A DNA stretch of 40,975 bases, from assembly GCA_964014485.1 (NCBI GenBank), contig CAXHAT010000055.1, forward strand, positions 1 through 40,975. The letters are read 5' to 3'. A program made the translations under genes and the position numbers. The notes beneath the pieces were generated by a model, which saw only the letters and a list, made by a program, of their open reading frames with translations, had not been told where the DNA came from and ran no database searches. The DNA comes from an uncultured Deferribacteres bacterium (lineage in GTDB: Bacteria > Zhuqueibacterota > Zhuqueibacteria > Zhuqueibacterales > Geothermadaptataceae). The number at the start of each line of letters is the position of its first letter. The first letter of the stretch is position 1. Below are positions 4,380 to 35,475 of this stretch, piece by piece.

Positions 4380-4380
4380 A

Positions 4381-7260: not shown

Positions 7261-7292
7261 AAGACTGGAAGACTGAAATATTGGAGTTCTGG
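7261..7292. repeat. Degenerate octamer array upstream of the protease gene
   Basis: AAGACTGG AAGACTGA AATATTGG AGTTCTGG. Confidence 0.6.
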
Positions 7293-7296
7293 ATCG

Positions 7297-8544: not shown

Positions 8545-8564
8545 GACCGGACGTGAACGGCCTC

Positions 8565-8600
8565 CAGTAATGAGTAAGCAGTGAACTGTAAACAGTCAAC
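8565..8600. repeat. Family B heptamer remnant B3
   Basis: CAGTAATGAGTAAGCAGTGAACTGTAAACAGTCAAC. Confidence 0.75.
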
Positions 8601-17056: not shown

Positions 17057-17554
17057 ATGCTCAAGACAAAAGATCAAGTGAAATCGATTGGCTCGGTGGA
17101 AGATTTGGAAAAGGCGATGAAGGAATTGGCCTTAGTACACTTCAAGCAACAGGAAGCTTTGGGAGAAATCAACGGCCAAATGTCAGAACTCAAGGAAAAA
17201 CTGGCGGCGAAAACCAAGCCGTTTTCCGAGCGCATCGCCGCGCTGAATATGATGATCGAGAACTACTGCACCGAGCAAAAAGCGGTGCTGTTCAATGAGA
17301 AAAAGCGCAGCCTGAAACTGCAATTCGGGCAGGTGGGTTTCAAGGCTTCGAAAGCGCTCGAAACCACGGAAAAGACGCTCAAAATTTTACTCAGCCTGCC
17401 GCTGAAAGTCAAAAAGATGTACTTGAAGATGACTCCCGCCATTGACAAGGCGGCGCTCAAAAAAGCGCCCGCCGAAGAGTTGAAAAAATACGACGCGAAA
17501 ATCGTTGAAAACGAGAATTTCTTCTGTAAGCCGAATCAAGTCGTCTCGGCCTGA
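17057..17554 (+). CDS. gam: Mu Gam-like host-nuclease inhibitor (DNA end-binding)
   Basis: Long N-terminal coiled coil, then LFNEKKRSLKLQFGQVGFKAS, IDKAALKK and C-terminal ENFFCKP, the pattern of the Mu Gam family; AGGAG RBS. Confidence 0.85.
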   Translation: MLKTKDQVKSIGSVEDLEKAMKELALVHFKQQEALGEINGQMSELKEKLAAKTKPFSERIAALNMMIENYCTEQKAVLFNEKKRSLKLQFGQVGFKASKALETTEKTLKILLSLPLKVKKMYLKMTPAIDKAALKKAPAEELKKYDAKIVENENFFCKPNQVVSA

Positions 17555-21000: not shown

Positions 21001-21814
21001 CTTCGTGCATAACACGGACGACGACAAGGTCTATTGCGTGGCCGTGGATCGCAGATACGAGACGCTGGAATCCGTGCTCTTGTGCGCCGATTTTGACGAT
21101 GCGAGAGCGGCGGGAAGCGAAATCCAGATCGAGCAGTGCAGCGTTGTGCTAGCCGGCGAGACGCAGCATCGCGCCGGGATCGTGGCGGGGTCGAACGGCA
21201 GGCTCTACGGCGTGAGCGGCGACCGGCAAAACGCCCTTTGGCAGTACGACGACAATTTCTATCCGCGCATGACGATTGCCGACCTCGGCGACAAGGATTT
21301 GCGCGAGACCCTGAACGATACGGTGCAAGTGCTCAACCGCACGATGCAGAGCCGGGCGGATCGCACCATTCGCGTGGTGGAGCGCGACAACTACGACGGC
21401 GAAAAGACTTTGTTTGAAGACAGGCACGTCATCCGGCTCGATCCCCTGAAAACGTGGCCGTATTATTATGATCGCGTCGAGGTGAATTGGAAGAATCCGG
21501 TCACGGATCAAAGCGGTTTGGCGGCGGCGGGTCAAGGCGGTTGGGAGCGGCGCGTGCTGGCGATTTCGAATGACTTAATTCAGTCGCGCGGCTTGGCGGA
21601 AGTCGCGGCGCAAGAGATTTTTGAGTACTTCAATCAACTGCGTCAGATGATCGAGACGGAGAACATCGCCCTGCTCGACTTGGAAGAGTACGACCGGATC
21701 AATTACATCATGAACACGGCGAACAGGGATATTTCGCGCAACGATTTTTTCAAGCTCGTCAGCCTGGAATTCGACCCGGAATCGCTGACGCTGACGACGC
21801 GGGGGGTGAAGTAA
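18044..21814 (+). CDS. Large tail-tip/hub protein with inserted beta-rich (propeller-like) domains
   Basis: 1256 aa after the tape measure gene; hub-like N- and C-terminal parts (YFGGTVD; ISNDLIQSRGLAEVAAQEIFEYF); no signal peptide. Confidence 0.7.
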   Translation: MKSFTDPNTILQQEKRNNATFVVRIELLRQFAGAIKSRDSATQITLEGDATALLANGEAFAIPLDDFSDTHTITATPSYNSGSDDTTVVCSGSSFAASGLPGLHVAKRYTVSGGNVERCIEITPLKFEMEGETLNAWQASEVDLALENGDGFFANSADTGLFDNDDIFWARIYFGWKGASDRVLYFGGTVDRDEGEDDRYGKQFRVTVFGHLKELERYPGWLINDPARKLLTVRGFDVLQAQTSAEFVEGLREFKFNFPAKDFLSGLAINSVSDGTEPGWHVIKFRPPDLFQYDYGDWTELTAGQEDATLTASQGHYVKVNAPRDFDVDMRYLLFQSEIDGGKTRAGARGTASLQAANGAKLDLVHDFQHIVRVKGAANTDLSYDLNNDARVFKAVFDAANDELYLISNQKWESLECVLDAGFVGALDWDYSSGFDNFKALSVTDGTNDFAQSGLVTWDLPSDWNRTDIDFGGTIEVVRDVFILRITCASYTSGTANAYFVRRGLRLTSDDGLALDLKVSLATLSLEAFELDLIALNGASETEISTWKTNLAHHQLAENILDATGYGAGKRTLDELNYSLSAPVMSNYGQPPYPGFRKTVSALAVDTSTTPETVYLGIGDELWKVTEKSEFAFLDRLDGREGVEQEIFRLAFDASGNLHGVARRKKEPIVTEIGRSISTQAVAATVFRSTDLATITEQNAIEASGEPRLASGEFQFRVSTGPGGFSYVGQSTSPVVEAGENLIVPYPSTSHGLVNSGGHAFNRTSGLTSGVTGLSLSHEPSYRKAFGFYLINTIDQADYFRFEMGAPGFCVWDDTDEQWVFFYWDNPNDSRVSLVDYQGTITHHFALNDVTRQMLSGCMGDNHDLWVAEMQWDNFGATFPSDLSEGKIVKADLDTTNDFITQFNCAIDSIEASQSLSGNHGSWPKIRSCTILEMCFHSVENSLHGCILDRFTLQYHWFVYDIANAKLYSSQTGTGFNFNAGMQLTGFVHNTDDDKVYCVAVDRRYETLESVLLCADFDDARAAGSEIQIEQCSVVLAGETQHRAGIVAGSNGRLYGVSGDRQNALWQYDDNFYPRMTIADLGDKDLRETLNDTVQVLNRTMQSRADRTIRVVERDNYDGEKTLFEDRHVIRLDPLKTWPYYYDRVEVNWKNPVTDQSGLAAAGQGGWERRVLAISNDLIQSRGLAEVAAQEIFEYFNQLRQMIETENIALLDLEEYDRINYIMNTANRDISRNDFFKLVSLEFDPESLTLTTRGVK

Positions 21815-22764
21815 TGGGCGCATCGATCAACGTGGTCGGCGGGGTTGAGAATCCGCGTTTTCTTTTGTTGGGGCCGGAGTTGAGTCCGAACGTCGGCTTT
21901 GAGGAAGATTTGACCGGCGTGGTCGGCGGCGCGGGAACGCGGGTGCAGGACAATGCGGCCCCGTTCGGCGATTACGTGCTCAAAATCGAAGACGATAACC
22001 CTGATTCGAGCGAAAGCGTGCAAATCACGGTCGAGACCGGCGCGGACGTAAAACAGCGCAAGTTTATCGCCTTGTGGTACGCCCGCAACGACGCGGACGA
22101 AGGCGACCAGATGATGCACGTCACGGTTCCGAACTTCTCCAACACGCCGGACTTGAACAAGGACGAAACGCTAGATCCCGCTTGGCGGCAGTTCGTGCAT
22201 GAGATCGTCGTTCCAGCGGACGCGACCGGGCAAAACGTGGTTTACGTCGTCAGTCCAACCGCCAGAGTTGAGGGCGTTGCAGGCGAGGGCGCGATCCGGT
22301 TGGACAATTTTCGCTTCCGCGAAATCTTCGACGAATACGAATTGCCGCTTGCGCCGCGCGGCGAGGCTTCGGAAGGCTTCCGGGAGGTGTTTCAGGCGCA
22401 AAACGAGCTTTTGAACGGCGCATTGCGCACCTATGTGACCGGCTATCGCTACTTTTACCAGGCGTTTTACCAGCGCTTGACGGCGGCGCAAGAAACACTC
22501 AGACGGCGCACGCTTTCACGCGCTCGCGACGTGCTGTTTTTCCCGCACATGGACGCGCAAATGAGTTACTTCGTACGCTGGGACGACGAGTTTGAAAGCG
22601 AGTGGTCGGACGGCATGGCCGAGCTTGGCCACGCCGGAAACGTGGCGCTGATCGGCACGGAACTCATTCCGGCGCTGCCTGCTGACGTAGTCGATCCGTT
22701 GACGGCGTATAATCCGCTCACCGAAGACCTGATTTTGGAAAACGGTGATGTCTTTATTGAATAG
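21814..22764 (+). CDS. Minor tail protein with a carbohydrate-binding-like insert (Dit-like candidate)
   Basis: ELSPNVGFEEDL...AWRQFVHEIVVPADAT...IRLDNFRFRE resembles a CBM4/9 jelly roll; TAATG coupling. Confidence 0.6.
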   Translation: MGASINVVGGVENPRFLLLGPELSPNVGFEEDLTGVVGGAGTRVQDNAAPFGDYVLKIEDDNPDSSESVQITVETGADVKQRKFIALWYARNDADEGDQMMHVTVPNFSNTPDLNKDETLDPAWRQFVHEIVVPADATGQNVVYVVSPTARVEGVAGEGAIRLDNFRFREIFDEYELPLAPRGEASEGFREVFQAQNELLNGALRTYVTGYRYFYQAFYQRLTAAQETLRRRTLSRARDVLFFPHMDAQMSYFVRWDDEFESEWSDGMAELGHAGNVALIGTELIPALPADVVDPLTAYNPLTEDLILENGDVFIE

Positions 22765-23029
22765 CGGAGAACGGAGGAAGATCGTGTTTGTTGGGCGGAA
22801 AATAAACGGCACTTGGCAGCATTTTGTTTTGGGCGTTGGCCTGGTCTTTTTGTCTCTGGCGCTGCACAAAATGATTTGGCCAGCGATTTACGTCCTGCTC
22901 ACGGTCGAATTGGTGCAGGCGGACGTTTTCGGATGGCGCAATCTTTTGAAGCTCGATACGTGGCACGATTTGCTCATCGATGCGCTCGGCGGAATCATTG
23001 GCTGGGCGGTTTGGTGGCTGGCCTTCTAA
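22745..23029 (+). CDS. Small membrane protein (VanZ-like)
   Basis: Three hydrophobic segments with the QHF...ELVQ...DLLIDALGG pattern. Confidence 0.6.
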   Translation: MMSLLNSGERRKIVFVGRKINGTWQHFVLGVGLVFLSLALHKMIWPAIYVLLTVELVQADVFGWRNLLKLDTWHDLLIDALGGIIGWAVWWLAF

Positions 23030-23045
23030 TATATAAGGAGTCGAT

Positions 23046-23789
23046 ATGAAAAAGCTCATTCTGATATTTTTGGCGTTGGCCGCGCCGCTCTTGGCGCAGG
23101 AAACGTCGCGCTACGAGATTAAATTGCGCTCTTCCGTGACCAATAAACTGGTCTCCGGGCGCGATGTTGACCTCTACCAGGGCGCAAGCAAGATTTACGA
23201 TCTCAGCGAATCGGCGAGCACGCCGGGCGTGTACTTCCACGCGGCGGTCGCCAACGGCGAATACGACGTTTGGGTCAACGGTTCCCTGTTCAAATCGGAC
23301 GTGTGGATCGGCGCGAACAAGGTGACGATTGTGGTGGATCATTTTGACGGCAACGGCCACATGACCGGCGCGGCGGTGGATGCGCTGGCGGATACGATGC
23401 AGGCGCGCGGAGTCAAGTTCGGCAACGACGTGGACGATCAGACGGTTGAACTCAACAACGACACTTTACGGGTGAAAGACGGCGGTCTGAGCACGGCAAA
23501 GCTGGCGAATAACGCTGTGACAAGCGTCAAGATCGCCGCCGATGCGGTTTCAATTCAGAAATTCAAGGGCGCGCTGTTGGAAGATCAGAGTTTTCAGGTC
23601 AGCGCCGACAGTCTGGTGATTGACTTAACAATTTACGGTCTGGCGAATCCGAAGGCGTTGATCACCAATAAAAGCGCTTGGCCCGGCTACGTCGCTTCGC
23701 TCTCGACGGCGCAAGTCGTGATCAAGCCTTATTTTCTCGGACAAGGCGACACGGTTACTTTTGACCTTTTGATTTTGGAGGAAAACTAA
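23046..23789 (+). CDS. Signal-peptide-bearing tail-fibre-like protein
   Basis: MKKLILIFLALAAPLLA/QE; fibre-type repeat LSTAKLANNAVTSVKIAADAVSIQK; AAGGAG RBS. Confidence 0.75.
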   Translation: MKKLILIFLALAAPLLAQETSRYEIKLRSSVTNKLVSGRDVDLYQGASKIYDLSESASTPGVYFHAAVANGEYDVWVNGSLFKSDVWIGANKVTIVVDHFDGNGHMTGAAVDALADTMQARGVKFGNDVDDQTVELNNDTLRVKDGGLSTAKLANNAVTSVKIAADAVSIQKFKGALLEDQSFQVSADSLVIDLTIYGLANPKALITNKSAWPGYVASLSTAQVVIKPYFLGQGDTVTFDLLILEEN

Positions 23790-24742
23790 TGCAGCATCTC
23801 AGAATTTGCCTCACGATTTTACTGGTTTTCTTGCTTCAGAACCTTAGCGCGCAGGACGTTGTCGTGCATGTGGACGGTGAAGTTTCCGCAAGCGGCGACG
23901 GTTTGACGCGGACGACGGCCTACAAGACGATTGCCGAAGCGGTCGCGCACGCGCCGGAACCGAATCAAATCCATATTTGGCCGTCAACTTATGCCGCGAT
24001 CACGGTGGACGTAACCGGAAAAGGCTCGATCAGCCGCCCGATGCGTTTTATTGGGCGCGAGGAGAATCTTGAGCGGGTTTCGATCTCCGGGGGTAACGAC
24101 ATTTTTCACGGTACGCTGCTGGCCAACAATAGTTTTATTCAAATCGAGAACATTGATATTTCGAGCACGGGCGAAGCGATCCGCTACTGTACCGCGACGC
24201 TGCGCTCGGTGAACCTGCATAGTGCGGGCAGGCCTTTCGACTGCGGAACGGGCACGGGAACGACAGACGCTTTTGCCGCTTATGACTGCCTGATCGTAGC
24301 CGATTTACAGAATCTTTACGTGATTCGCGCTTCGGCGATTAGGGTTTACAACAGCACGATTCGAACGACTGGGGCTGCGGGTACGAGTATGATGGCGGTC
24401 GTCAATGCCGGGAATAAGATTTTGAAGTTTATCAACTCAGTCATTTGGGGGTATGACAATACCCGAACGCTGGTGCCGAACGACGGCTATCAACCGAACA
24501 TCATCGAAGTGAGAAACTCACGTTTTTTTCAGGCGGATACGACTGGGCTGACTGGTATCTCCGGGGGCTTGAGTCCGGTCGTTGAGCAGATGTACAATGA
24601 GACGAATATGCAACTGACGCTTTCCGGGTCGCCCGACTTCACTTATGAATTGGGCGCATCTTCGCCGCTACGGAATTCCGGGGTGAATGGTGAAGTGATC
24701 GGGGTTATTTCGAAGGTTTCCGGCGTGAGGATCGGCAAATGA
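23789..24742 (+). CDS. Signal-peptide-bearing right-handed beta-helix protein (DUF1565/pectin-lyase-like)
   Basis: MQHLRICLTILLVFLLQNLSA/QD; SGDGLTRTTAYKTIAEAV...IHIWPSTY cap motif; C-terminal LGASSPLRNSG. Confidence 0.75.
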   Translation: MQHLRICLTILLVFLLQNLSAQDVVVHVDGEVSASGDGLTRTTAYKTIAEAVAHAPEPNQIHIWPSTYAAITVDVTGKGSISRPMRFIGREENLERVSISGGNDIFHGTLLANNSFIQIENIDISSTGEAIRYCTATLRSVNLHSAGRPFDCGTGTGTTDAFAAYDCLIVADLQNLYVIRASAIRVYNSTIRTTGAAGTSMMAVVNAGNKILKFINSVIWGYDNTRTLVPNDGYQPNIIEVRNSRFFQADTTGLTGISGGLSPVVEQMYNETNMQLTLSGSPDFTYELGASSPLRNSGVNGEVIGVISKVSGVRIGK

Positions 24743-27609
24743 AAACACGATTCTTAATTGGCTATTTATTGCTGGGCTTCGGCGTGGTTTTCGGGCAGAA
24801 TACCAGGATTCATGCACCGGATCAGCTTGGTCTGAAGTCACTTGCGCCGGTCGGATATGGCGCAAACGTTGGACTTCGCTTTAATCCGTTTTCGGGCGTG
24901 TTCGGCGAAACGGTTTATGCCGGACGCTTCGAGGCGCTGCAATTGAATGGCGACGTTGTTATTGGCGACGGCGGAATCGGCGCGAAGTTGAACCAGGTTT
25001 TTCCAGCGACGGGCAACGCTTTTGTCGGCACGTCTATTTTGCCTTTCGGGGCGGGGTATTTTGAGCGTACGGGGATGCGCTTCATTACGCCCTTGAGCGG
25101 CGAAAACGTGCTTTTTGACACGGAAGCCTTGTCCGTGCGCATTCTGCTGCCGTTTGATTACTTGTCGGTTATTGGCAGACAATATTTACGCTTCTCTGCC
25201 GGTTGGTTTAGCTATTTGGACGCGGACTCGCTCGACGTGCGTAAAATCTCGCAAAACGGCTCTCCTTTGAATCTGGATGCGGACTTTAGTAATATTGAAT
25301 CCGACTCAATCAAGGTCGATACGCTGGAAGTGACGTATCACCTGGAAGCGTCCGGCGCTTATGCGCACTTTGATTCTGTGAAGGTTCGGGCGCTCGACGT
25401 GGGAGTCGGTACGGTCAAAATCACCGACGCAAAAGTCGATGCGGATACGGTTAGCTTTGAAGCGCTGACGCAAGGCGCGGGCGGCAAAACGGCGGCGCTG
25501 CAAACGGCGACTGTTGAGAATCTAACCGTAAATTCTACGTTTTCCGTGATCCCGACGCTATCGGCGAACAGCGTGATTATTGACGGCCAAAACAGAGACG
25601 GATTTTTTGATCGCATTTCCGTTGGCAATCAGGTTTTAGGCGACGGAATTGCCGACGATGCAATCACCAACAGCAAGATCAACACGGATGCGGTCACGAG
25701 CGATAAAATCCAACCGGCGACCATCGTCTTGGGAGACCTTTCCGCAGGATTGCAAACGTGGATCGTTGCCAACGCCGGAACGGGGGGCACGATTAACAAC
25801 TTTGCCGACGAAGTGACTTTAACGGAAAACGCATCGAGCGAACTGGAGTTGAAAATCGGCAATACCGTCAACGGCGTGCGCTGGGAGCATATCAATAATG
25901 CGGCAAAGGCGACGTTTCAGATGCTCGGCTTTGGCGGCGAGACGCTTTATAATCTTGAATTTTACGGTTGTCACCCTGACTCGTCGGCGGATTGGAATTC
26001 GCTCAAAATCGCGGAAATCTGCTCGATTGCACGCTCAAAAGACGAAGGCGTTTTATTTGTGCCGCGTACTTACGAGATTCGAAACCGTATCAATATCGAC
26101 TGGGATCGTTCCGGCGTAATCGGGCTTGCGCCGCAGATTTCCGGCTTTCTGCGCGCGGATTCATTCAACGGCAATTGGCATAAAGACTGGCCTGCAACCG
26201 ATCCGTTCGGGCTTGGCGCGCAACTTAACGTCTGGCAGGCGGACGGCTCCATATTAATGAATTTCAGGTTAGACAGCCAGCATCGCATTTCGCCGGGCGA
26301 GCATGGAAATATGAATCCGATCACCGTCACGCAGTCGCGCAGCGTGCATTATCAGAACGTTCATATTGAGAACATCAACGGTCACACTTACGGCAACTGG
26401 TGGCAGTACTGCGACGACGTGACGATCAAGGATTCCTGGTATCACGGCGATTATGATAATTCGGAAGGCGGCACGGCGGACGCACAAGAGTTATTGGAAA
26501 TCGTCGTTGGGCGGGACATAACGATTGACAATTGCCGCTTTGAGCGTGCGGCTGGTCAGGGCGTATTCATCTACAACGCGCCTTTTGTGGCGCAATCGCC
26601 AACGGACAATCGTTTTGGCGTGAACGGTATTCACAATATCAAGGTCAAAAACTGTTATTTTGACTCACTCAAGAAAGGCGTTTATCTATTGCAAGGCGCG
26701 ACGGCGACAGACTTCACGTATAAAAACGTCACGTTACACGATAATGATTTCTGGCGAATTCACGGGGATGCGGTCTATGTGATCACACAGAATGCAGCGA
26801 CGGTCACAGATACGATGCGGACGATCTTCATCACTGAAAACGACTTTCACCATAATGATCGCAGCGGCTTTTTTCATACGGTGGATTCGCTTTTCGTGGA
26901 AGGCAATAAAGTATGGGGGGATTCTTCCGGCGCTTCCTGGACGGATGCGCCTTTTGTCAATACGTTGTTGGTGAACGCTTTTTTTCGGGAGAATGAAATT
27001 TACAGTCCGAAGGAAGCGGGGATGACGTTTTCAACCGGAATGCAGTATATCGAGGCGACGGGAAACAAGATATATAATCCAGGCAGCGTTGGCATTTACA
27101 ATCAAGGCGTTTATCCGCGACTGATCAAAGACAATTTAGTCGTCAATCCGAATCGCAACAACAATACAGGCAACTCGGAAGGCTCAGGGATTTATCTGTT
27201 TCCGAATTCGGAGAACGCTTTCATTGTCGATAACTTTGTGCTTTCGCTCGGCGACACGGCGATGATGACGAAAGCCTTTTACTTCCAGGCGTTTCAGGGC
27301 GATTCGATCTATGTGCGAGACAATCACACAAACGCCTGGACTTCGTCGCAGGATTTTCTCTACAGTCAGGACGAGACGCGAACGCCAAGTCCTGTATTCA
27401 CTTCGATTACACCAACGAGCGGAGCGACGCAAGTGCGGATATTTTGTCGATTGTATTCGCAGGACGCAAACAAGATTCAGATCGGCAACACGCGAGCTTG
27501 GCTTGATCCTTACGTGTTGTCGTTTCACAATGACGGCTTGACGGTTGGGTTTGCCAACGGCAAAACAGCGGACGGAACGCAAAGAGTTTGGGTGAGACAA
27601 TTTCCTTGA
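24739..27609 (+). CDS. Signal-peptide-bearing tailspike/depolymerase-like protein (fibre repeats plus beta-helix)
   Basis: MKTRFLIGYLLLGFGVVFG/QN; IADDAITNSKINTDAVTSDKIQPATI repeat; beta-helix rungs ITIDNCRFE, IKVKNCYFD, VTLHDNDF, FVEGNKV. Confidence 0.75.
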   Translation: MKTRFLIGYLLLGFGVVFGQNTRIHAPDQLGLKSLAPVGYGANVGLRFNPFSGVFGETVYAGRFEALQLNGDVVIGDGGIGAKLNQVFPATGNAFVGTSILPFGAGYFERTGMRFITPLSGENVLFDTEALSVRILLPFDYLSVIGRQYLRFSAGWFSYLDADSLDVRKISQNGSPLNLDADFSNIESDSIKVDTLEVTYHLEASGAYAHFDSVKVRALDVGVGTVKITDAKVDADTVSFEALTQGAGGKTAALQTATVENLTVNSTFSVIPTLSANSVIIDGQNRDGFFDRISVGNQVLGDGIADDAITNSKINTDAVTSDKIQPATIVLGDLSAGLQTWIVANAGTGGTINNFADEVTLTENASSELELKIGNTVNGVRWEHINNAAKATFQMLGFGGETLYNLEFYGCHPDSSADWNSLKIAEICSIARSKDEGVLFVPRTYEIRNRINIDWDRSGVIGLAPQISGFLRADSFNGNWHKDWPATDPFGLGAQLNVWQADGSILMNFRLDSQHRISPGEHGNMNPITVTQSRSVHYQNVHIENINGHTYGNWWQYCDDVTIKDSWYHGDYDNSEGGTADAQELLEIVVGRDITIDNCRFERAAGQGVFIYNAPFVAQSPTDNRFGVNGIHNIKVKNCYFDSLKKGVYLLQGATATDFTYKNVTLHDNDFWRIHGDAVYVITQNAATVTDTMRTIFITENDFHHNDRSGFFHTVDSLFVEGNKVWGDSSGASWTDAPFVNTLLVNAFFRENEIYSPKEAGMTFSTGMQYIEATGNKIYNPGSVGIYNQGVYPRLIKDNLVVNPNRNNNTGNSEGSGIYLFPNSENAFIVDNFVLSLGDTAMMTKAFYFQAFQGDSIYVRDNHTNAWTSSQDFLYSQDETRTPSPVFTSITPTSGATQVRIFCRLYSQDANKIQIGNTRAWLDPYVLSFHNDGLTVGFANGKTADGTQRVWVRQFP

Positions 27610-27631
27610 CGATTTGCAAGGTCTTGGAATG

Positions 27632-27670
27632 CAAAAAAGCCGGATTTCATCGCGAAATCGGGCTTTTTTT
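27632..27670. terminator. Bidirectional intrinsic terminator
   Basis: AAAAAAGCCGGATTTC-ATCGC-GAAATCGGGCTTTTTTT between convergent genes. Confidence 0.8.
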
Positions 27671-27742
27671 GTGGATTTGGCGGAAGCGACTTTTCAAAAT
27701 ACGAACTTTTTTTCATATAGTGAACATTCGCAAATCACTGAA

Positions 27743-28822
27743 TTAGTGTGATCGATTGGCGAAATTAGCGAGAGCGACTTTAGCTCCGGGAGCGTTGCGC
27801 AGCATAACAATCAAATGACGCTCCTCCACAAAGCGGAAAATGATCGTGTTAAATCCAAAAATGCCGCCGGAATGCGCCGTGACTTTCAAGCTGTCCGAGC
27901 CGCCGTTTGGCGAAGGCATTTTACGCACGCCCCAGCCGAACGCGTAGTTGCTTAACTCCGGCGTAAACATTTCTCTTTTGCTTGCTTCGGAAATCAGTTT
28001 CTCCGTGTAGAGCGCTTGGTCCCACAAATACAAATCTTCCACTGTCGAATAGAGCGATCCGGCGGCGTAGGGAATCGACATGTCCAGATAGGGCGCGTTG
28101 ATAAATTCGCCTTGCTGGTTGCGATGGTAGCCGGAAGCTCGGCGCGCCGTCAAACGTCCATGGTGGTCATAGCCGCTATTTTTCATTCCCAAAGGCTCAA
28201 AAATCATTTCACGCAAAGCATCTTCATATTTCCCGCCGGTGACCGTTTCGATTATCGCCCCCAAAACAAAATAGCCGGAATTGTTGTACTTGAATTTTGA
28301 GCCTGGCTCAAACTCCAGATCGTCGCTGCAATATTTCTTCACAAATTCTTCGGGCGCGTAAGGATCGCGCACTTTGTTTTGCATAAAGTCAGCGGAGCCT
28401 GTGTAACTCGGGATTCCAGAGGTGTGATTGAGCAATTGCCTGATCGTCACCTTCTCCCCAACGTCTTTGCGGTAATAGTCAAGATAATCCGCAAGCTTGC
28501 CGTCGAGCGAAAGTTTTCCTTTTTCAACAAGTTGCATAATCAGCATCGAGGTGAATTGTTTTGTTATCGAAGCGAGGCGGAATTTCGTATCCGCCGTGTT
28601 CGGGACGCCCCACTCCATGTTGGCGTCGCCAAAGCCGCCGCGAAAAACGACTTCTCCTTTCTCCGCGACTAAAATTGCACCGTTGAATCCGCCGTTCTTG
28701 TGATAAGCCGTCATCAGCGAATCGATTCTTTCTGATTTGCTTTCGGCGAAGGCCGCGCTTGCCAAAAAGTAAGCGGCCAACACAGCCCCGAACGCGATAC
28801 GCCTTTTGCAAAAAAATCGCAT
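27743..28822 (-). CDS. Serine hydrolase, beta-lactamase/AmpC-like family; C-terminus possibly clipped
   Basis: Signal peptide; SxxK (ASITK), LLNHTSG, YxN (YNN), HSG. Confidence 0.9.
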   Translation of the reverse strand: MRFFCKRRIAFGAVLAAYFLASAAFAESKSERIDSLMTAYHKNGGFNGAILVAEKGEVVFRGGFGDANMEWGVPNTADTKFRLASITKQFTSMLIMQLVEKGKLSLDGKLADYLDYYRKDVGEKVTIRQLLNHTSGIPSYTGSADFMQNKVRDPYAPEEFVKKYCSDDLEFEPGSKFKYNNSGYFVLGAIIETVTGGKYEDALREMIFEPLGMKNSGYDHHGRLTARRASGYHRNQQGEFINAPYLDMSIPYAAGSLYSTVEDLYLWDQALYTEKLISEASKREMFTPELSNYAFGWGVRKMPSPNGGSDSLKVTAHSGGIFGFNTIIFRFVEERHLIVMLRNAPGAKVALANFANRSH

Positions 28823-28851
28823 TGTCCATCCTTCAGGAAAAATTAAGGTCG

Positions 28852-30117
28852 TCAGTCAACGATTGCCTGGTATGTTAAAACCTGAAACTCCTGCCGTATC
28901 TTGTAATAGCCAAACGGCAAAAACTGCATCATTAAAAGACCGATAAGTTCTTCTTCGGGATCGATCCAAAAGTAGGTGTTTGCCATACCGCTCCAGGAGT
29001 ATTCGCCATTTGAACCAACAATTTGCGTCTGCGCCGGATCGACGACGACGCGAAAACCAAGCCCAAAACCAGCATGATTTCTTCCGCTGGAAAAACCGTT
29101 TAATAATTTTCCCGGAAGATGGTTCATCGTCATAAGCTCGACTGTTTTGCGCCCCAAAATCCGAGCGCCGTCAAGCTCGCCGCCGTTTAGCAGCATTTGG
29201 GAAAACCGCAAGTAGTCGCTGGTCGTCGCCACCATGCCGCCGCCGCCGGAAAAGCCGGTCGGCTTACTCTGAAAAGCTGCGCCTTTGCCGTCCATTTCGG
29301 AGACTGCGAGTTTGCCATCCTTGTTCAGCTCGTACATTGACGCTAGGCGCGCGTGTTTGTCTTTCGGTACAAAAAATCCGGCGTCGCTCATTTGCAGCGG
29401 TTCGAAAATGCGCTCTTGCAGAAACTGATCAAAGGTTTGCCCGGAGACTGCTTCAACAAATCGGCCCAAAACATCGGTGGCCACGCTGTAATACCACGCT
29501 TCGCCAGGCTGCATGAGCAACGGAATCTCGGCAAGTTTCTTGGTGAAGTCAGCCAAAGTCACTTCTCCGCTCAATACATGATTTTCTCGGTAGAGTGAAT
29601 CGACGACCGTGTTCGAAAAAAAACCATAGGTCAATCCGGCTGTGTGACTTAGAAGTTGGCGAACGGTAAATTCTCTTTTTTGCGGCTTGGTGCGAACTTC
29701 GCCGTTGCTCGTGTCGGCAAAAACCTGGGTTTGCTTGAACTCGGGCAGGTACTTTGAAACCGGGTCATCGAGCAGAAAGCGGCCTTCTTCATAAAGCATC
29801 ATCACCGCAACGCTGGTGATCGGCTTGCTCATTGAATAAATGCGAAAAATCGTGTCGAGCTGCATCTCACGGTTCGTCTCAAGGTCCGCTTTTCCGAATT
29901 TTGCAAAATGAACGACTTTTCCTTTGCGTGCGACAAGCGAGACAACGCCCGCCAACTTGCCGTCGTCAACGTATTTCTGAATGAGCGGTTCGATGCGCTT
30001 TAGCCGCTCGCTCGACATGCCGACCGATTCCGGTTTGGCGACAGGCAGGCCTTGAGCAAATAACGGCGTTTGCAAAAGCGCGACGATGAACAAAAATCGA
30101 AAAAACCTAAAATTCAT
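28852..30117 (-). CDS. Serine hydrolase, beta-lactamase-like (family VIII esterase type)
   Basis: Signal peptide; FRIYSMSK, LLSHTAG, WYYS, WSG motifs. Confidence 0.9.
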   Translation of the reverse strand: MNFRFFRFLFIVALLQTPLFAQGLPVAKPESVGMSSERLKRIEPLIQKYVDDGKLAGVVSLVARKGKVVHFAKFGKADLETNREMQLDTIFRIYSMSKPITSVAVMMLYEEGRFLLDDPVSKYLPEFKQTQVFADTSNGEVRTKPQKREFTVRQLLSHTAGLTYGFFSNTVVDSLYRENHVLSGEVTLADFTKKLAEIPLLMQPGEAWYYSVATDVLGRFVEAVSGQTFDQFLQERIFEPLQMSDAGFFVPKDKHARLASMYELNKDGKLAVSEMDGKGAAFQSKPTGFSGGGGMVATTSDYLRFSQMLLNGGELDGARILGRKTVELMTMNHLPGKLLNGFSSGRNHAGFGLGFRVVVDPAQTQIVGSNGEYSWSGMANTYFWIDPEEELIGLLMMQFLPFGYYKIRQEFQVLTYQAIVD

Positions 30118-30422
30118 GATGACCTCGGTACTGTTTGCATTGAAAATCTGGTTCAAGTCAGAAAGCTAACGCTCAAAATTTCAAATCCAATCTCAGCCAG
30201 CCGGGTTCTCCGATCAAAACTGAACGGACGGATCAAATTCACGCCGATGTCTTTCCAGACATTTTCTGAAAGCTTCCACTCTTCCTTGTCGGGTGTATTG
30301 ATTTTTTTGAACTTGCGTCCATCTTGAGAATGATTTTTTATGAAGTGCGATTCATCATCGCCTTCACAGCGATGTGCAAACAAACGCTGAAGCGTTTGAC
30401 TCCAAAGTTTTCGAATAGACTT

Positions 30423-31586
30423 TTAGTTGAAAACAGCCGTTAGAAAGTACTCAACGGCGAAAGTGCTCAACTGCCCTCCAGGGCCGCTCAATTTAAAATC
30501 AAACCCATGCGTCGCCCACGGCATGGCCAGATAAAGATGCGGCGTTCCTGCATCTTTCAAAACTGCGCCCAACCTTCCAGATTGTCGGAACGAAACCAAT
30601 TCGTCACGGCCGCCGTGCAAAAGCAAAGTCGGCGGGGTTTTGTGGCCAACGTGTTTTATTGGTGAAGCAGCCTCGTATGTTTCGAATACCTCTCTCGGGC
30701 TACCGCCAAGAAAATTTTCCAAAACTTCGTGTGTATTAATCACAGCAGGGTTCGCTGGATTTGCATAGCCAAAATGCAAGTCGGCGGGGCCGTAAAATGA
30801 AACCACGCCGCGAATTGCAGGATCGTCAAAAGTATATCCGGCAAGCATGGCAAGATGCCCTCCGGCCGAGCCTCCGATGAAGACAAATTTTGTCGAATCT
30901 ATGTCGTACTGTGCTGCATTCGATTTGAGTTTTCTAAACGCCGATTCGACGTCATCAATTTGAGCCGGGAATTGCCATCGCGGAGCAAGCCGGTATGAAA
31001 TTGACGCGACGACATAACCTTGTCCGGCCAGGTAGCGGTTAAGCTCAGGCAACTGCTGACTGTTTCCTCCGCGCCACGCCCCGCCGTGAATAACGAGAAC
31101 GCAAGGCGCAGGCTGCGTCTGATTTTGGGGAGAGTAGAGGTCGAAAGTTAAAATTTGTCCGTCAGCAGAATCAAAAGGAATTGTCTGGAAAGAAATTTCG
31201 GGCGTATCGACGAATCCAAAAAGATCAAAGGCGCTTATCGGGGCCGATCTCCCAAGCCCGGCCAATTTCTCGGGCGTCAATCTGTTTTCCCCAAATGCGT
31301 TTTCTAAATCGCTGGTTAAATTCACCGCCAGCGGAAGCGCACGCATGAGCGGTGACAGAAAAAGAAGGGAAGCGAGCGCAGCAAACGCAATGGTAGCGCG
31401 CCCCCAATTTCCTCGCTTTTCTGTTGGCAAAACTGCAAGCAAAGGCGTCCAAAAAACCAAATGGCCATATTCCGTCACGGCGATAGATAATAGCCAGAGC
31501 GTGTTGGTCGGCGCCTTAAAAACCGCGAGTAATGAAATCAAGAAACAAGACAATGCGAAGAAGAGTCGAAGAACGTCAGCTAACAT
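30423..31586 (-). CDS. Membrane-anchored alpha/beta hydrolase (HSL-like esterase)
   Basis: N-terminal TM helices; HGGAW oxyanion motif, GGSAGG nucleophile, D (RDELV) and H (THGF). Confidence 0.9.
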   Translation of the reverse strand: MLADVLRLFFALSCFLISLLAVFKAPTNTLWLLSIAVTEYGHLVFWTPLLAVLPTEKRGNWGRATIAFAALASLLFLSPLMRALPLAVNLTSDLENAFGENRLTPEKLAGLGRSAPISAFDLFGFVDTPEISFQTIPFDSADGQILTFDLYSPQNQTQPAPCVLVIHGGAWRGGNSQQLPELNRYLAGQGYVVASISYRLAPRWQFPAQIDDVESAFRKLKSNAAQYDIDSTKFVFIGGSAGGHLAMLAGYTFDDPAIRGVVSFYGPADLHFGYANPANPAVINTHEVLENFLGGSPREVFETYEAASPIKHVGHKTPPTLLLHGGRDELVSFRQSGRLGAVLKDAGTPHLYLAMPWATHGFDFKLSGPGGQLSTFAVEYFLTAVFN

Positions 31587-31603
31587 TTTTTACTGGGTTA
31601 AGC

Positions 31604-32293
31604 TCATAATTTCTCTAACTTTGAGCGCTCTTCGGCAAGTGCTTCTTGCACGCGTCCGATTTGTCGGAAGGTTCTTTCGGCGTGGCTCAGGTACAATCCG
31701 ATGAAGCCAAAGCGCTGATCCAACATGGCGGCGACTTCAGGGTCACGGACGGCGTTCATGGAAAGAAATGCGCTCTTGTGCAAAGAGTAAAACTTTCGCC
31801 GCTCCCAGGTAATTTTCTCAACTACGCCGTCCAACACCGTTCCGAGATAGTTGATTCGAACGTAGTAAAATTCGTACAACTCCACGATTGAAGTCAGCAG
31901 TTCCTTGTTCGAAACAAGTTTTAGGGCGCCTTCTGACACCATTGCTTTGTAGGCGCCGACCGTCGGGAAAAACGTTTCATTGTTGCGTGAAATCAAGAAC
32001 AGCGAATCGATACGCGCCTTTTGGCTTTCCGTCGCTTCCGGCATGATGGTCAGCAGAATGTCCAGCGTTTCGAGAATTTCTTGCTGATTTTGAATGACAA
32101 TTTGCAGCCGATTGTTGTCCGCGGCGAGGTTCGCCGACAATTCCTGAAGGTAAAAGCGCTCTTGCTTTTTGTCGCTTTTATCTTCTCGCCAGCTATTCAG
32201 CGCAAAGCCGACGAGTACGCCAAAAATAATGGCGAGAAATTCAACGAGATAATTGCCGTACTTAGAGCGAAAGTGCGAAATCATAATAGCCAC
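31604..32293 (-). CDS. Hypothetical membrane-anchored protein (DUF6090-like)
   Basis: YLVEFLAIIFGVLVGFALNSWRE followed by helical bundle. Confidence 0.75.
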   Translation of the reverse strand: MAIMISHFRSKYGNYLVEFLAIIFGVLVGFALNSWREDKSDKKQERFYLQELSANLAADNNRLQIVIQNQQEILETLDILLTIMPEATESQKARIDSLFLISRNNETFFPTVGAYKAMVSEGALKLVSNKELLTSIVELYEFYYVRINYLGTVLDGVVEKITWERRKFYSLHKSAFLSMNAVRDPEVAAMLDQRFGFIGLYLSHAERTFRQIGRVQEALAEERSKLEKL

Positions 32294-32403
32294 ATTTTTT
32301 CAGAAAAAACGCAATATGTGCGTGGAAATTCTCAATACAAAACGCTACGCGCCGACCGGAGGCGAAACTTGTTTGAAGTCATTCAACAAACCACAAATCA
32401 TTG

Positions 32404-33540
32404 ATGCGAATTGTTGCAGACGAAAATATCATTTTCGCCAAGGAAGCGTTTTCTGCTTTCGGCGAGGTCAAAACGTTGCCCGGGCGCACTATCACTCGCG
32501 AAAGCTTGAAGAAAATTGACGTCTTATTGGTGCGCTCGGTGACGCGCGTGGACGCTTCACTTTTGGCAGGAACGCCAGTTCAGTTTGTCGGTACGGCGAC
32601 TATCGGAGTGGATCATCTGGATCAAGAATATTTGATCCGAAACGGCATTGCATTCACAAACGCCGCCGGGTGTAACGCAAACGCCGTCGCGGAGTATATA
32701 ATCACGGCAATTTTGCATGTTGCAGCTTGCAAAAACATTTCGCTTGAAAAAAGCAGCCTGGGGATTGTCGGGGTCGGCAATATTGGGAAACGCGTCGATC
32801 AACTGGCGCGAGCGCTGGGCATGAAAACGCTGCTCAATGATCCGCCGTTGCAGCGAAAAACCGGCGACGCTGTGTTTAGAGATTTAGATGCGTTAATGCA
32901 GGCGGATTTCGTGACGTTGCACGTTCCCCTGATTAAGGAAGGCATGGGCAAGACCGTACATCTTTTTGATGACGCCCGCTTGAAAAAGCTCTCGAAGACT
33001 ATTGCGCTGATCAATACGTCTCGTGGGCCAGTGATCGACAATCAAGCATTGCTTTCGTGGAAAAAAGGCGCCCCTGAAGCCACGCTAATTTTGGATGTGT
33101 GGGAAAATGAGCCGGAAATTTCGCCGGCGCTTTTGGAGCAGACTTTTGTCGCGACCCCGCATATCGCAGGCTATACTTTTGAAGGTAAGGTGAACGGCGC
33201 CCGGATGCTCGTCAAGGCTCTCGAAAAACATTTTGCGACACAATCCGGGTGGGCTCCGCTGCCCGCGCGGCAATCGTGCAAAATCTTCCCGGCGGCAAAT
33301 TGCAATAAGCTCGAAACGTTTCTTTCCGAGATCACAGGAAAAGCCAATCCAATTTTGAAAGACAATTATCAATTGAAGAGCGGAATCACGAAGGGCGGCG
33401 GAATTTCCGGACATTTCGAAACGTTGCGGAAGAATTATGCACTGCGTCGCGAATTTGAAAATTTTGAAGTCAGATTGTCAAAAACGCAACGTAAATTCGC
33501 ACATGTATTACGAGCGCTTGGTTTCAAAACTCCAGTTTAA
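32404..33540 (+). CDS. pdxB: 4-phosphoerythronate dehydrogenase
   Basis: MRIVADENI, LLVRSVT, GTATIGVDH, GVGNIG, LDVWENEP, TPHIAGY, LRKNY.RREF. Confidence 0.95.
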   Translation: MRIVADENIIFAKEAFSAFGEVKTLPGRTITRESLKKIDVLLVRSVTRVDASLLAGTPVQFVGTATIGVDHLDQEYLIRNGIAFTNAAGCNANAVAEYIITAILHVAACKNISLEKSSLGIVGVGNIGKRVDQLARALGMKTLLNDPPLQRKTGDAVFRDLDALMQADFVTLHVPLIKEGMGKTVHLFDDARLKKLSKTIALINTSRGPVIDNQALLSWKKGAPEATLILDVWENEPEISPALLEQTFVATPHIAGYTFEGKVNGARMLVKALEKHFATQSGWAPLPARQSCKIFPAANCNKLETFLSEITGKANPILKDNYQLKSGITKGGGISGHFETLRKNYALRREFENFEVRLSKTQRKFAHVLRALGFKTPV

Positions 33541-33587
33541 TTTTCTTGCCTATCAACGCAAGTTTTCTATTTTCAGCATTCATTTTC

Positions 33588-33684
33588 GGGAGCGCATGGG
33601 CGCCTGGTGGCCTCCGCGGTCTTCAAAACCGTTGTGTCGTCGGTTGTCCCGACGATAGGTGGGTTCGATTCCCACACGCTCCCG
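33588..33684 (+). tRNA. selC: tRNA-Sec (anticodon TCA)
   Basis: Acceptor GGGAGCG/CGCTCCC with discriminator G; anticodon loop CTTCAAA (TCA 33623-33625); long variable arm; T arm GTGGG-TTCGATT-CCCAC; CCA not encoded. Confidence 0.93.
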
Positions 33685-33708
33685 CTTTTTTCTTCGGGAA
33701 TAGGATCG

Positions 33709-35070: not shown

Positions 35071-35475
35071 TGTCAAACTCCTTTCTTGTTGTCATTCGAT
35101 GATGCTACCGAAGCTGTACAGTTAATTCTACGAATCAAACGAGGCTTTTCCCTTCTCCATTTCGGAATCAATTCGAGCCAATATCATCGCGCATATAGAC
35201 AGCCGGTGCGTGGCCGTTTTCAATCATTATGCCATTCGTCAGATGTTACGAATAGTTCGTCAATTCAAGCTGATTTTTGTCCAATTTCTCACTCTGTTCC
35301 GTGCGTTCGTGAACCTGAAACGACTTTTCGCGTTGTGAGATATTCGAAGAATCCAAATTAATTGGGAGAGAATGATTCGCAGGACGTGCAAAAACAATTT
35401 CGTGGTTGACCTACAAAAATGAAAATGACTTGCGCTTTTATGATCAGGAACAAGGTCGGACGTCGATAAAAAACC

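What the first reader, a model, noticed from the sequence alone, without database searches (positions are those of the whole stretch)
23046..27609. Tail-fibre/tailspike-like genes that all carry Sec signal peptides: a possible exported receptor-binding module
Seen: three translationally coupled genes at the canonical fibre position, at the end of the late operon, each begin with a basic-hydrophobic signal peptide and Gln at +1 (LLA/QE, LSA/QD, VFG/QN). Host secreted proteins in this window follow the same style (LFA/QG, LWA/QK). Two contain fibre-type AVTxxKI repeats and two contain right-handed beta-helices. A small membrane protein gene precedes them. Established: tailed-phage virion proteins normally fold and assemble in the cytoplasm without signal peptides. 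Inference: either the adsorption apparatus is exported and joins the virion in the periplasm or at lysis, or fibre-derived depolymerases/adhesins are secreted to remodel the host surface, aid release or block superinfection. Either would be an unusual phage strategy, and this is the best candidate for a new system in the window.
Basis: partly seen in the sequence, partly recalled or inferred. Interest (0 to 1): 0.88.

Follow-up and report, generated by a model that had tools for sequence, protein, structure and literature searches.

The report
Phage tail-fibre proteins carrying export signals
A prophage in an uncultured marine bacterium ends its tail operon with three fibre- and tailspike-like proteins that each start with the host's own secretion signal, so these host-recognition parts probably fold outside the cytoplasm, where tailed-phage particles are normally built.

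Summary
Genes A (23046-23789), B (23789-24742) and C (24739-27609) overlap one another, close the late operon of a siphovirus-like prophage, and are the only 3 of 22 phage ORFs with a basic-hydrophobic N-terminus ending in small residue/Gln. The host, related to a candidate-phylum KSB1 MAG, uses the same Gln rule genome-wide.

The signal is conserved. It occurs in 10 of 11 beta-helix relatives of C, one of them at the same post-tail position in an unrelated viral contig. A and B have leaderless relatives that begin exactly where the mature proteins would begin; B's is an MS/MS-annotated virion protein of Cellulophaga phage phi4:1. C's C-terminal 550 residues model as a tailspike/depolymerase beta-helix.

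Cultured Cellulophaga phage phi18:3 has three consecutive leader-plus-Gln proteins annotated as virion or tail proteins from MS/MS. Two are homologous to leaderless phi4:1 virion proteins.

Best reading (0.45): exported receptor-binding or depolymerase proteins that mature in the periplasm and meet the tail at lysis. Main rival (0.33): exported accessory enzymes that never join the virion. Nothing here shows cleavage or location.

This scan has already noted the same pattern on other DNA, at least 16 notes. My five literature searches found no paper describing it for tail fibres. What is new here is the KSB1-type host and a temperate siphovirus-like phage.

The parts
22745..23029 (+). 94-aa small membrane protein (about 3 hydrophobic segments), overlaps the end of the 316-aa tail-module gene and ends 16 nt before gene A
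   Evidence: ORF. Weak VanZ hit, E 3.2e-4, 21.8 bits, below the 30.1 cut-off. A 53%-identical paralogue in a non-phage context at C80:21187-21453.
23046..23789 (+). Gene A, 247 aa: leader, N-terminal beta-rich domain, short AVTxxKI-type fibre repeats, C-terminal beta-rich domain
   Evidence: phrog_892 tail fiber, E 4.8e-7, residues 113-169. Residues 22-187 align to residues 4-180 of leaderless P0014, E 1e-13. Nearest Atlas clusters are mostly viral, score 0.84, a lead only.
23046..23099 (+). Predicted signal peptide of A (18 residues, cut ..LLA/QE)
   Evidence: AAGGAG lies 8 nt upstream. No Shine-Dalgarno-preceded internal start in the first 60 codons.
23789..24742 (+). Gene B, 317 aa: leader plus the N-terminal cap of a right-handed beta-helix protein; the rest is unassigned
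   Evidence: phrog_36353 virion structural protein, E 1.5e-7, residues 27-93 to profile positions 4-70. Residues 23-89 are 37% identical to the start of Cellulophaga phage phi4:1 gp048. Residues 4-100 match a host-type secreted beta-helix/FN3 protein, E 1e-12.
23789..23851 (+). Predicted signal peptide of B (21 residues, cut ..LSA/QD)
   Evidence: GGAGG upstream. GTG codons 26 and 28 with a weak AGGA upstream could give a leaderless form; this is not shown.
24739..27609 (+). Gene C, 956 aa: leader, about 380 residues of poorly modelled fibre-like region with two AVTxxKI repeats, beta-helix, C-terminal beta-sandwich
24739..24795 (+). Predicted signal peptide of C (19 residues, cut ..VFG/QN)
   Evidence: GAGGA upstream. 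No Shine-Dalgarno-preceded internal start.
25936..27606 (+). C residues about 400-956: right-handed beta-helix plus terminal beta-sandwich (tailspike/polysaccharide-depolymerase fold)
   Evidence: AlphaFold2 with an 11-row alignment gives block pLDDT mostly 75-95 over residues 400-956. Foldseek top PDB hits are the LKA1 gp49, HK620, Sf6, Det7 and Pam1 tailspikes and the secreted lyase RbmB, E about 1e-8. BFVD top hits are phage tailspikes and depolymerases, E down to 1.7e-13.
27639..27670 (.). Hairpin with a T-run after it and an A-run before it, between convergent gene C and the host beta-lactamase-family gene; probable two-way terminator closing the late operon
   Evidence: Seen in sequence. 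RNA fold of 27610-27680 is -21.2 kcal/mol, z -1.94. The consensus scan did not list it.

Best explanation
A, B and C are phage fibre/tailspike-type glycan-binding or glycan-cutting proteins made as Sec pre-proteins. Signal peptidase I cuts them just before a glutamine, so they fold in the periplasm, probably with a pyroglutamate N-terminus as in host exported proteins. They are made together with the tail proteins from the same late transcript. I think they are most likely the phage's distal host-recognition and depolymerase parts. On this reading they meet the cytoplasm-built tail only when the inner membrane and wall are breached at lysis, and dock then. Shown: the leader-like N-termini, their conservation, the fibre/tailspike homology and the operon structure. 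Inferred: export, cleavage, periplasmic folding and late docking.
For: (1) Only A, B and C of 22 phage ORFs have leader-like N-termini. Their starts are fixed by gene overlap and Shine-Dalgarno-like motifs.
(2) The small-residue/Gln junction matches the host's genome-wide habit: 466 of 1328 against an 11% background.
(3) The leader is a family trait. Of 10 fetched beta-helix relatives of C, 9 have it, as does the viral-contig relative (10 of 11). All 10 have A or G before Gln. M1 and Q19 are near-invariant in alignment A2.
(4) The relative in viral contig L002 directly follows the tape-measure, 705-aa and LamG tail genes. That phage shares no other protein with this one by BLASTP.
(5) Leaderless relatives start exactly at the predicted mature N-termini. 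P0014 residue 4 aligns to A residue 22. phi4:1 gp048, an MS/MS-annotated virion protein, starts at about B residue 24.
(6) C has the tailspike/depolymerase fold.
(7) Cultured Cellulophaga phage phi18:3 gp085, gp086 and gp087 are consecutive and each has a leader ending S or A before Gln. The GenBank record annotates them as virion structural or tail proteins 'based on experimental MS/MS proteomics'. gp087 is homologous to leaderless phi4:1 tail protein gp050 (E 1.4e-35) and gp085 to gp047 (E 1.2e-14).
(8) There is no room for a separate promoter: 16 nt before A and overlaps between the genes. The sigma-70-type scan found 2 sites in 21500-28000, against a mean of 4.0 in shuffles; one lies inside gene B and one downstream of C.
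(9) The D[ST][AILVMT] motif exceeds composition-matched shuffles in A (4 vs 1.26, P 0.033) and C (10 vs 3.66, P 0.004). It does not in B or in four other phage proteins. I recall this motif as the Bacteroidota O-glycosylation site; that comes from no call.
Against: No result here shows export, cleavage or presence in virions, and SignalP was not run.
GC3 falls from phage-like to host-like along the module: A 0.71, B 0.64, C 0.60, phage core 0.69-0.77, host 0.50-0.59.
B's cap is best matched by a host-type secreted protein.
The membrane-protein gene just upstream has a host paralogue. All of this suits acquired cargo.
The phage also has leaderless candidate tail-tip proteins of 1256 aa and 316 aa. 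The latter has viral look-alikes at 0.92 and a CBM_4_9 lead at 0.87. So A-C need not be its receptor binders.
In phi4:1, 0 of the 22 CDS with an MS/MS note among the 27 checked (34-78 kb) has such a leader. Only gp057 has a hydrophobic N-terminus, and it looks like an uncleaved anchor beside the endolysin gene.
Some relatives have only about 30-55 residues between the leader and the helix (P0004, P0006, P0016), which is short for a particle-binding domain.
The MS/MS labels come from the GenBank record only. The source paper was not held, and co-purifying exported proteins cannot be excluded.
Confidence: 0.45

Rival explanations
1. Exported but never part of the virion. The three proteins are fibre-derived enzymes or adhesins released into the envelope during late infection. 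They would cut or mask surface polysaccharide to help release, stop progeny from sticking to debris, or block superinfection.
For: The export signals and the depolymerase fold suit this equally well. Among the top structural matches is a free secreted lyase, V. cholerae RbmB. Six of 11 family members hit the periplasmic NosD model. The phage has other, leaderless tail-tip candidates. Several relatives have a very short region before the helix. Typical virion fibres of a Bacteroidota phage lack leaders. Exported proteins encoded beside tail genes are a known habit of phages; lambda Lom and T5 Llp are examples recalled from memory, not from a call.
Against: A keeps the N-terminal domain that forms the extreme N-terminus of a leaderless fibre. 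C keeps about 380 residues of fibre-like region that a free enzyme would not need. The phi18:3 leader-bearing proteins are annotated as found in virions, and two are homologous to leaderless virion proteins. No type IX secretion C-terminal domain was found in any of 11 members. They would therefore stay in the periplasm until lysis, away from surface polysaccharide.
Confidence: 0.33
2. Host-benefit cargo (lysogenic conversion or an auxiliary metabolic module). Secreted polysaccharide-active proteins were picked up from bacteria and are expressed from the prophage for the lysogen.
For: GC3 drifts to host values. B's cap resembles a host secreted beta-helix/FN3 protein. The adjacent membrane-protein gene has a host paralogue. 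The module sits at the prophage end next to host genes.
Against: The genes are translationally coupled to the tail genes, with no gap for their own promoter. A relative sits at the same place in an unrelated phage. A and C carry phage fibre repeats. No paralogue of A, B or C exists elsewhere in the 8.4-Mb genome. No orthologue was found in 166 other genomes of the phylum; only short beta-helix matches turned up.
Confidence: 0.1
3. The hydrophobic N-termini are not cleaved export signals. They would be uncleaved anchors or assembly tags, and the proteins end up as ordinary cytoplasm-assembled fibres.
For: No cleavage data exist, and the assessment rests on my heuristic only. B has possible internal GTG starts at codons 26 and 28 that would give a leaderless form.
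Against: All three, and 10 of 10 leader-bearing relatives, end in A or G before Gln, as host exported proteins do. That is hard to explain without signal peptidase I. The cores are short (about 10-14 residues) and follow K/R. A and C have no Shine-Dalgarno-preceded internal start.
Confidence: 0.08
4. The three genes are host genes that merely abut the prophage.
For: C's composition is near host values.
Against: They are on the same strand as the tail genes, overlap each other and follow them without a gap. The terminator-like hairpin lies after C. They have phage homologies. A relative lies inside a viral contig.
Confidence: 0.03

Closest known systems
Cellulophaga phage phi18:3 gp085, gp086, gp087 (NC_021794)
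   Same: Three consecutive late proteins each have a basic-hydrophobic leader ending S or A before Gln. Small membrane-protein genes lie nearby. The GenBank record annotates them as virion structural or tail proteins from MS/MS. Two are homologous to leaderless virion proteins of another phage.
   Different: No detectable sequence similarity to A, B or C; best BLASTP E is 0.09. It is a lytic phage of a Bacteroidota host. Its genes sit beside the lysis genes and away from the main structural block. No Pfam domain was found in them.
Leaderless tailspikes and fibre depolymerases (LKA1 gp49, HK620, Sf6, Det7, Pam1 tailspikes; Cellulophaga phage phi4:1 gp048)
   Same: C shares the right-handed beta-helix with terminal beta-sandwich, and the position after the tail-tip genes. 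B's cap is 37% identical to the start of phi4:1 gp048.
   Different: Those proteins start directly with the particle-binding or cap domain and have no leader. Trimer formation and a particle-binding domain were not shown for A-C.
Leaderless metagenomic fibre P0014 (1015 aa)
   Same: A single protein combines A's N-terminal domain, long AVTxxKI arrays, C's 'NAGTG..' linker and a beta-helix.
   Different: It has no leader, is one gene instead of two, and its genomic context is unknown (34-kb contig; viral scan negative).
Q-rule signal-peptide genes of Porphyromonas gingivalis phages (PMC10367356, passages read)
   Same: Phage genes whose predicted signal-peptide cleavage exposes Gln, read by the authors as adaptation to the host's secretion system.
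   Different: They are described as five genes of unknown function. The passages I read do not link them to fibres or tailspikes.
Secreted bacterial beta-helix polysaccharide lyases, e.g. Vibrio cholerae RbmB
   Same: They are exported and share the beta-helix fold. RbmB chains are ranks 2, 5, 7 and 10 in the PDB search.
   Different: They are chromosomal, not in a tail operon, and lack fibre repeats and the fibre-like N-terminal region.

Membership tests
Sec / signal peptidase I substrates obeying the Bacteroidetes-type Q-rule | Positively charged N-region followed by a hydrophobic core of about 10-15 residues | tested here: met
   A has 2 K/R, B 1 and C 2 before cores scoring 3.24, 3.30 and 2.42. 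This is my heuristic, not SignalP.
Sec / signal peptidase I substrates obeying the Bacteroidetes-type Q-rule | Small residue at -1, permissive residue at -3, and Gln at +1 | tested here: met
   L-L-A/Q, L-S-A/Q and V-F-G/Q. The host shows the same bias, 466 of 1328. The rule is as described in PMC5837995 (abstract and passages read).
Sec / signal peptidase I substrates obeying the Bacteroidetes-type Q-rule | Actual export, cleavage and pyroglutamate formation | not testable with these tools
   This needs N-terminal proteomics or reporter fusions. A plant-type glutaminyl cyclase (PF05096) was not found in the 97%-complete genome. The animal-type enzyme was not searched.
Lipoproteins (signal peptidase II substrates) | Lipobox with Cys at +1 | tested here: not met
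   There is no Cys at or near the junction in A or C. B's only leader Cys is at residue 7, before the core.
Phage tailspike / polysaccharide depolymerase | Right-handed parallel beta-helix | tested here: met
   Met for C. For B only the N-terminal cap is shown.
Phage tailspike / polysaccharide depolymerase | Homotrimer with an N-terminal particle-binding domain; presence in virions | not tested
   C is too long for the complex tool. The first 390 residues of the model have pLDDT below 50. No proteomics were available.
Phage tail fibre with AVTxxKI-type repeats (phrog_892 and relatives) | Tandem repeat array | tested here: inconclusive
   A and C have only about 2 repeats each, and these align to arrays of dozens in P0010, P0014, P0015, P0018 and P0019.
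Type IX secretion cargo | C-terminal sorting domain (Por_Secre_tail) | tested here: not met
   No hit at E up to 1 in any of 11 family members, nor in A or B. The host phytase in the window does have one.
Moron / lysogenic-conversion gene (lambda Lom/Bor type) | Own promoter and terminator, and composition unlike the phage | tested here: inconclusive
   There is no intergenic room, and the sigma-70-type scan found no more sites than shuffles give. That scan does not cover other promoter types. GC3 does drift towards host values, and a terminator-like hairpin follows C.
Lysis cassette (holin, endolysin, spanin) | Peptidoglycan hydrolase domain; holin family membership | tested here: not met
   No hydrolase domain was found in A-C with Pfam, NCBIfam or PHROGs. 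The 94-aa protein has only a weak VanZ-like hit and a host paralogue.

The most novel reading that the evidence does not exclude
Tailed phages of hosts in the Bacteroidota-related (FCB) group, here a KSB1-type bacterium, have an extracytoplasmic step in particle assembly. Their outer receptor-binding fibres and depolymerases are exported by Sec, trimmed and capped (perhaps glycosylated) by the host's periplasmic machinery, and dock onto cytoplasm-built tails only at lysis. Leader-bearing and leaderless versions of the same fibre modules are swapped between phages.
Probability: 0.4. Interest if true: 0.85.

Novelty: new variant of a known kind. Interest (0 to 1): 0.7.

Why it matters
Textbook assembly of tailed phages takes place wholly in the cytoplasm. 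Absence of a signal peptide has even been used as an argument that a protein is phage-borne and not bacterial (PMC6199706, passage read). If receptor-binding proteins are routinely exported in this group of hosts, three things follow. Annotation pipelines would mislabel them as host secreted enzymes or 'auxiliary metabolic genes'. Host-range engineering would have to keep the leader. Particle infectivity would depend on host Sec, signal peptidase and possibly pyroglutamyl or glycosyl modification, which is a new point of phage-host dependence. The phi18:3 / Cellulophaga system makes the question directly testable in culture.

Tried and rejected
- **Word-based homologue searches** for A, B and C found only self or fragments.
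- **Collection scans that found no relatives.** Viral contigs with the 1256-aa protein (whose only tblastn-confirmed stretch gave no locus), the portal and P0014. Genome contigs with A1. Metagenome contigs with A1 and A2. tblastn of A and C against 50,697 phage records.
- **Genomic context** of relatives P0004-P0017 could not be fetched; only cluster sizes and contig lengths were available.
- **Single-sequence AlphaFold of A** was unusable, mean pLDDT 37.
- **Complex prediction** of the 316-aa tail protein with mature A gave no verdict, score 0.00. This is no evidence either way.
- **Sequencing runs.** No RNA holder was listed, so expression could not be examined. In runs X2 and X3 the stretch 27801-30200 had almost no cover while the phage part had some.
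- **Cysteines** are not enriched in A-C: 0, 3 and 6. The paired-cysteine pattern noted elsewhere in the scan does not apply here.
- **Plant-type glutaminyl cyclase** (PF05096) was not found in the genome.
- **Type IX secretion domain** was not found.
- **Cluster variants of P0004** are too alike to test selection on the leader. Twelve of 13 keep it; P0025 has a different N-terminus.
- **Holin idea** for the 94-aa protein was dropped after finding a host paralogue in a non-phage context.
- **Holmfeldt et al. 2013**, the source of the MS/MS annotation, is not held. I saw only its citation and the GenBank notes.
- **Literature searches** and passages of PMC9144972, PMC3556154, PMC5723332 and PMC5026251 gave no description of leader-bearing tail fibres.


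Full report
**What is there.** The window is the whole of contig C55 of an 8.4-Mb, 465-contig genome. Positions 2113-27609 hold one same-strand phage late operon:
- small and large terminase, portal, protease, major head protein and Neck1;
- a 715-aa probable tape measure (NCBIfam LIC12611 phage tail, E 1.9e-9);
- a Mu Gam-like gene;
- a 1256-aa and a 316-aa protein without family hits;
- a 94-aa membrane protein;
- gene A (23046-23789, 247 aa), gene B (23789-24742, 317 aa) and gene C (24739-27609, 956 aa).

Host genes follow on the other strand from 27743: two beta-lactamase-family proteins, an esterase and a phytase with a type IX sorting domain. Further on lie rimP, nusA and infB. The left end of the prophage runs off the contig.

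**Host.** IF-2 is 65% identical, and NusA 77%, to a MAG whose record title carries 'KSB1'. The figures against Ignavibacteria-type MAGs are about 50-60% and 44-45%. The phylum as held has only 167 genomes. The host is therefore most likely candidate phylum KSB1, a relative of Bacteroidota, and not Bacteroidota itself.

- A/B and B/C overlap (TAATG, ATGA). A starts 16 nt after the membrane-protein gene. Each start has a Shine-Dalgarno-like word upstream.
- Among the 22 phage ORFs only A, B and C have a K/R-containing N-region followed by a strongly hydrophobic core. Their scores are 3.24, 3.30 and 2.42; the next best, 2.20, has an acidic N-region.
- All three then have A or G followed by Gln.
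- This junction is the host's own habit. Among 1328 long ORFs with such N-termini, Gln is the first polar residue after the core in 466 (35%). Gln makes up 11% of polar residues elsewhere. In 270 of the 466 the preceding residue is A, S or G.
- The rule is described for Bacteroidetes, with a continuum elsewhere including Ignavibacterium album at 77% (PMC5837995, abstract and passages).
- All of this rests on a heuristic. SignalP was not available.

**What the proteins are.**
- *Gene A.* It hits a PHROG tail-fibre family through its short AVTxxKI-type repeats. Residues 22-187 align (E 1e-13) to residues 4-180 of P0014, a 1015-aa metagenomic protein with no leader. P0014 continues into long repeat arrays, a linker shared with C, and a beta-helix. 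A plus the middle of C thus resemble one leaderless fibre split in two, each half given a leader.
- *Gene B.* Residues 27-93 match positions 4-70 of a PHROG 'virion structural protein' family. They are 37% identical to the very start of Cellulophaga phage phi4:1 gp048, which the GenBank record marks as a structural protein from MS/MS and which has no leader. The same cap matches a host-type secreted beta-helix/FN3 protein in another genome of the phylum, which does have a leader. Beyond residue 100, B has no significant match.
- *Gene C.* It has a Pfam Beta_helix hit. In an AlphaFold model built on an 11-row alignment, residues 400-956 are confident and residues 1-390 are not. The best PDB matches are phage tailspikes (LKA1 gp49, HK620, Sf6, Det7, Pam1) together with the secreted lyase RbmB, AlgE epimerases and the adhesin PfbA. 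The best viral matches are tailspikes and depolymerases. The fold does not discriminate a virion spike from a free secreted enzyme.

**The leader is conserved and travels with the gene between phages.**
- An exhaustive HMMER search of 1.84 billion representatives gave only 18 hits for C. Eleven cover the beta-helix, and I fetched 10 of them. P0012, a 286-aa piece, was left out.
- Nine of the 10 have a leader. P0009 starts with V and is probably cut or fused.
- All nine have A or G before Gln. In the alignment without C, M1 and Q19 are nearly invariant.
- Of the six hits that match only the repeat region, one (P0010) has a leader and five do not.
- The only relative found in IMG/VR (L002) follows a Neck1 gene, a tape-measure gene, a 705-aa gene and a LamG-domain gene. 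It also starts with a leader ending A before Gln. It is the only protein that phage shares with this one.
- L002 has a second leader-plus-Gln protein of 190 aa among its head-tail genes.
- Within the host's phylum there is no orthologue. In 28 of 167 genomes there are matches, nearly all short beta-helix stretches inside large ORFs.
- No paralogue of A, B or C exists in the genome.

**A cultured-phage precedent.** This is a lead from earlier notes of this scan that I tested here.
- In Cellulophaga phage phi18:3 (NC_021794), gp085 (547 aa), gp086 (785 aa) and gp087 (559 aa, 'tail protein') are consecutive. Each has a basic-hydrophobic leader ending S or A before Gln. Each carries the GenBank note 'annotation based on experimental MS/MS proteomics analysis'. 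They are followed by small membrane proteins and the endolysin.
- The other 10 MS/MS-annotated proteins in that half of the genome have no such leader; gp120's N-terminus is moderately hydrophobic (score 2.05) but has no K/R before it.
- gp087 is homologous to leaderless phi4:1 tail protein gp050 (E 1.4e-35), and gp085 to gp047 (E 1.2e-14).
- The first 60-115 residues of gp086 and gp087, leader included, match the starts of other PHROG 'tail fiber' and 'pectate lyase' families. N-terminal attachment modules typically behave this way.
- By contrast, of 27 phi4:1 CDS examined, 22 of them MS/MS-annotated, none has such a leader. Only gp057 has a hydrophobic N-terminus, and it looks like an uncleaved anchor.
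- Leader-bearing and leaderless forms of the same virion-protein families therefore both exist in cultured phages of a related host group.
- I could not read the source paper, so co-purification of exported proteins remains possible.
- A, B and C have no sequence similarity to gp085-087.

**Points towards cargo instead of virion parts.**
- GC3 falls along the module from phage-like to near host values.
- The 94-aa membrane protein has a 53%-identical paralogue in a non-phage context beside polysaccharide-synthesis genes.
- B's cap is closest to a host-type protein.
- The phage has other leaderless tail-tip candidates.
- Against cargo expressed in the lysogen, there is no room for a promoter before A, B or C, and the sigma-70-type scan found 2 sites against a mean of 4.0 in shuffles. 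That scan does not cover other promoter types. The only terminator-like hairpin with a T-run lies after C.

**Where they would go.** No type IX sorting domain is detectable in A, B, C or any of the 11 family members, and none has a lipobox. On present evidence they would stop in the periplasm until lysis. A small extra hint of periplasmic adaptation is that the D[ST][AILVMT] motif exceeds shuffles in A and C only. I recall this motif as the Bacteroidota O-glycosylation site. Whether a KSB1 host glycosylates it is unknown.

**Verdict.**
- Export is likely. I put about 0.8-0.85 on a cleaved Sec leader. This is roughly the sum of the exported readings (the best explanation and rival explanations 1 and 2).
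- What the exported proteins then do is open.
- I favour late docking onto the virion (0.45). The reasons are the retained fibre architecture, the exact N-terminal register with leaderless fibres, the conserved post-tail position in an unrelated phage, and the phi18:3 annotation.
- The main rival is free envelope-acting enzymes (0.33).
- The remaining rivals are lysogenic-conversion cargo (0.10), non-cleaved anchors (0.08) and host genes (0.03).

**Novelty.** This scan has already noted leader-bearing fibre modules on other DNA: eight notes and eight more, one of them marked as checked later and standing. My five literature searches found no paper that describes signal peptides on tail fibres or tailspikes of tailed phages. 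The nearest is the remark on Q-rule genes of unknown function in P. gingivalis phages (PMC10367356). This window adds a host outside Bacteroidota proper, a temperate siphovirus-like phage, and two clean leaderless/leader-bearing homologue pairs.

Noticed in passing
whole genome G000; window 27743-35076 for examples: A host that two marker proteins place next to a KSB1-labelled MAG follows the 'Bacteroidetes' Gln-after-signal-peptide rule: 35% against an 11% background by my heuristic. No plant-type glutaminyl cyclase (PF05096) was found in the 97%-complete genome.
   Followed up: partly
window 17057-17554: A Mu Gam-like end-protection gene (Pfam E 6.5e-24) sits inside the tail module, between the probable tape-measure gene and the 1256-aa gene. 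Its GC is lower (0.48) than its neighbours' (0.57-0.58).
   Followed up: no
window 821-1849: A DUF4062 protein (E 2.8e-29; phrog_15411, E 3e-102) with GC 0.41 lies just upstream of the terminase genes, in a phage of GC about 0.56. It looks like an inserted accessory gene.
   Followed up: no
window 22745-23029 and G000 C80:21187-21453: The phage's 94-aa membrane protein has a 53%-identical host paralogue. The paralogue lies near glycosyltransferase, flippase and polysaccharide-export-like genes.
   Followed up: partly
L002 2001-2573: The unrelated viral contig carries another leader-plus-Gln protein (190 aa, ..VVAIS/QQ) between its neck genes and a 345-aa gene that may be the major tail protein. 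It has no family hit.
   Followed up: no
window 21001-33000 in runs X1-X3: In run X1 (possibly the source sample) one contig of mean depth 20 bridges the phage-host junction (21001-29141). The host contigs beyond it have depth 3.5-7. This might mean phage replication or strain mixture. Contig depths are flat means, so it is weak.
   Followed up: no
L122 (NC_021794) 2891-8583 and L119 (NC_021788): Leader-bearing phi18:3 gp087 and gp085 are homologous to leaderless phi4:1 gp050 and gp047. In phi18:3 the phi4:1 N-terminal 120 residues are replaced by a leader plus about 47 residues.
   Followed up: partly
window 23864-23872: GTG codons 26 and 28 of gene B, with a weak AGGA upstream, would start a leaderless B exactly where phi4:1 gp048 starts. 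Dual cytoplasmic and exported forms are conceivable for B only.
   Followed up: no
window 33588-33685: ARAGORN called a tRNA-SeC gene in the host flank, about 6 kb from the prophage end.
   Followed up: no
L120 2890-3840: A leaderless B-like protein (316 aa, same 'DG..SGDG..AYKTI' cap) sits directly after the major capsid gene in another viral contig.
   Followed up: no
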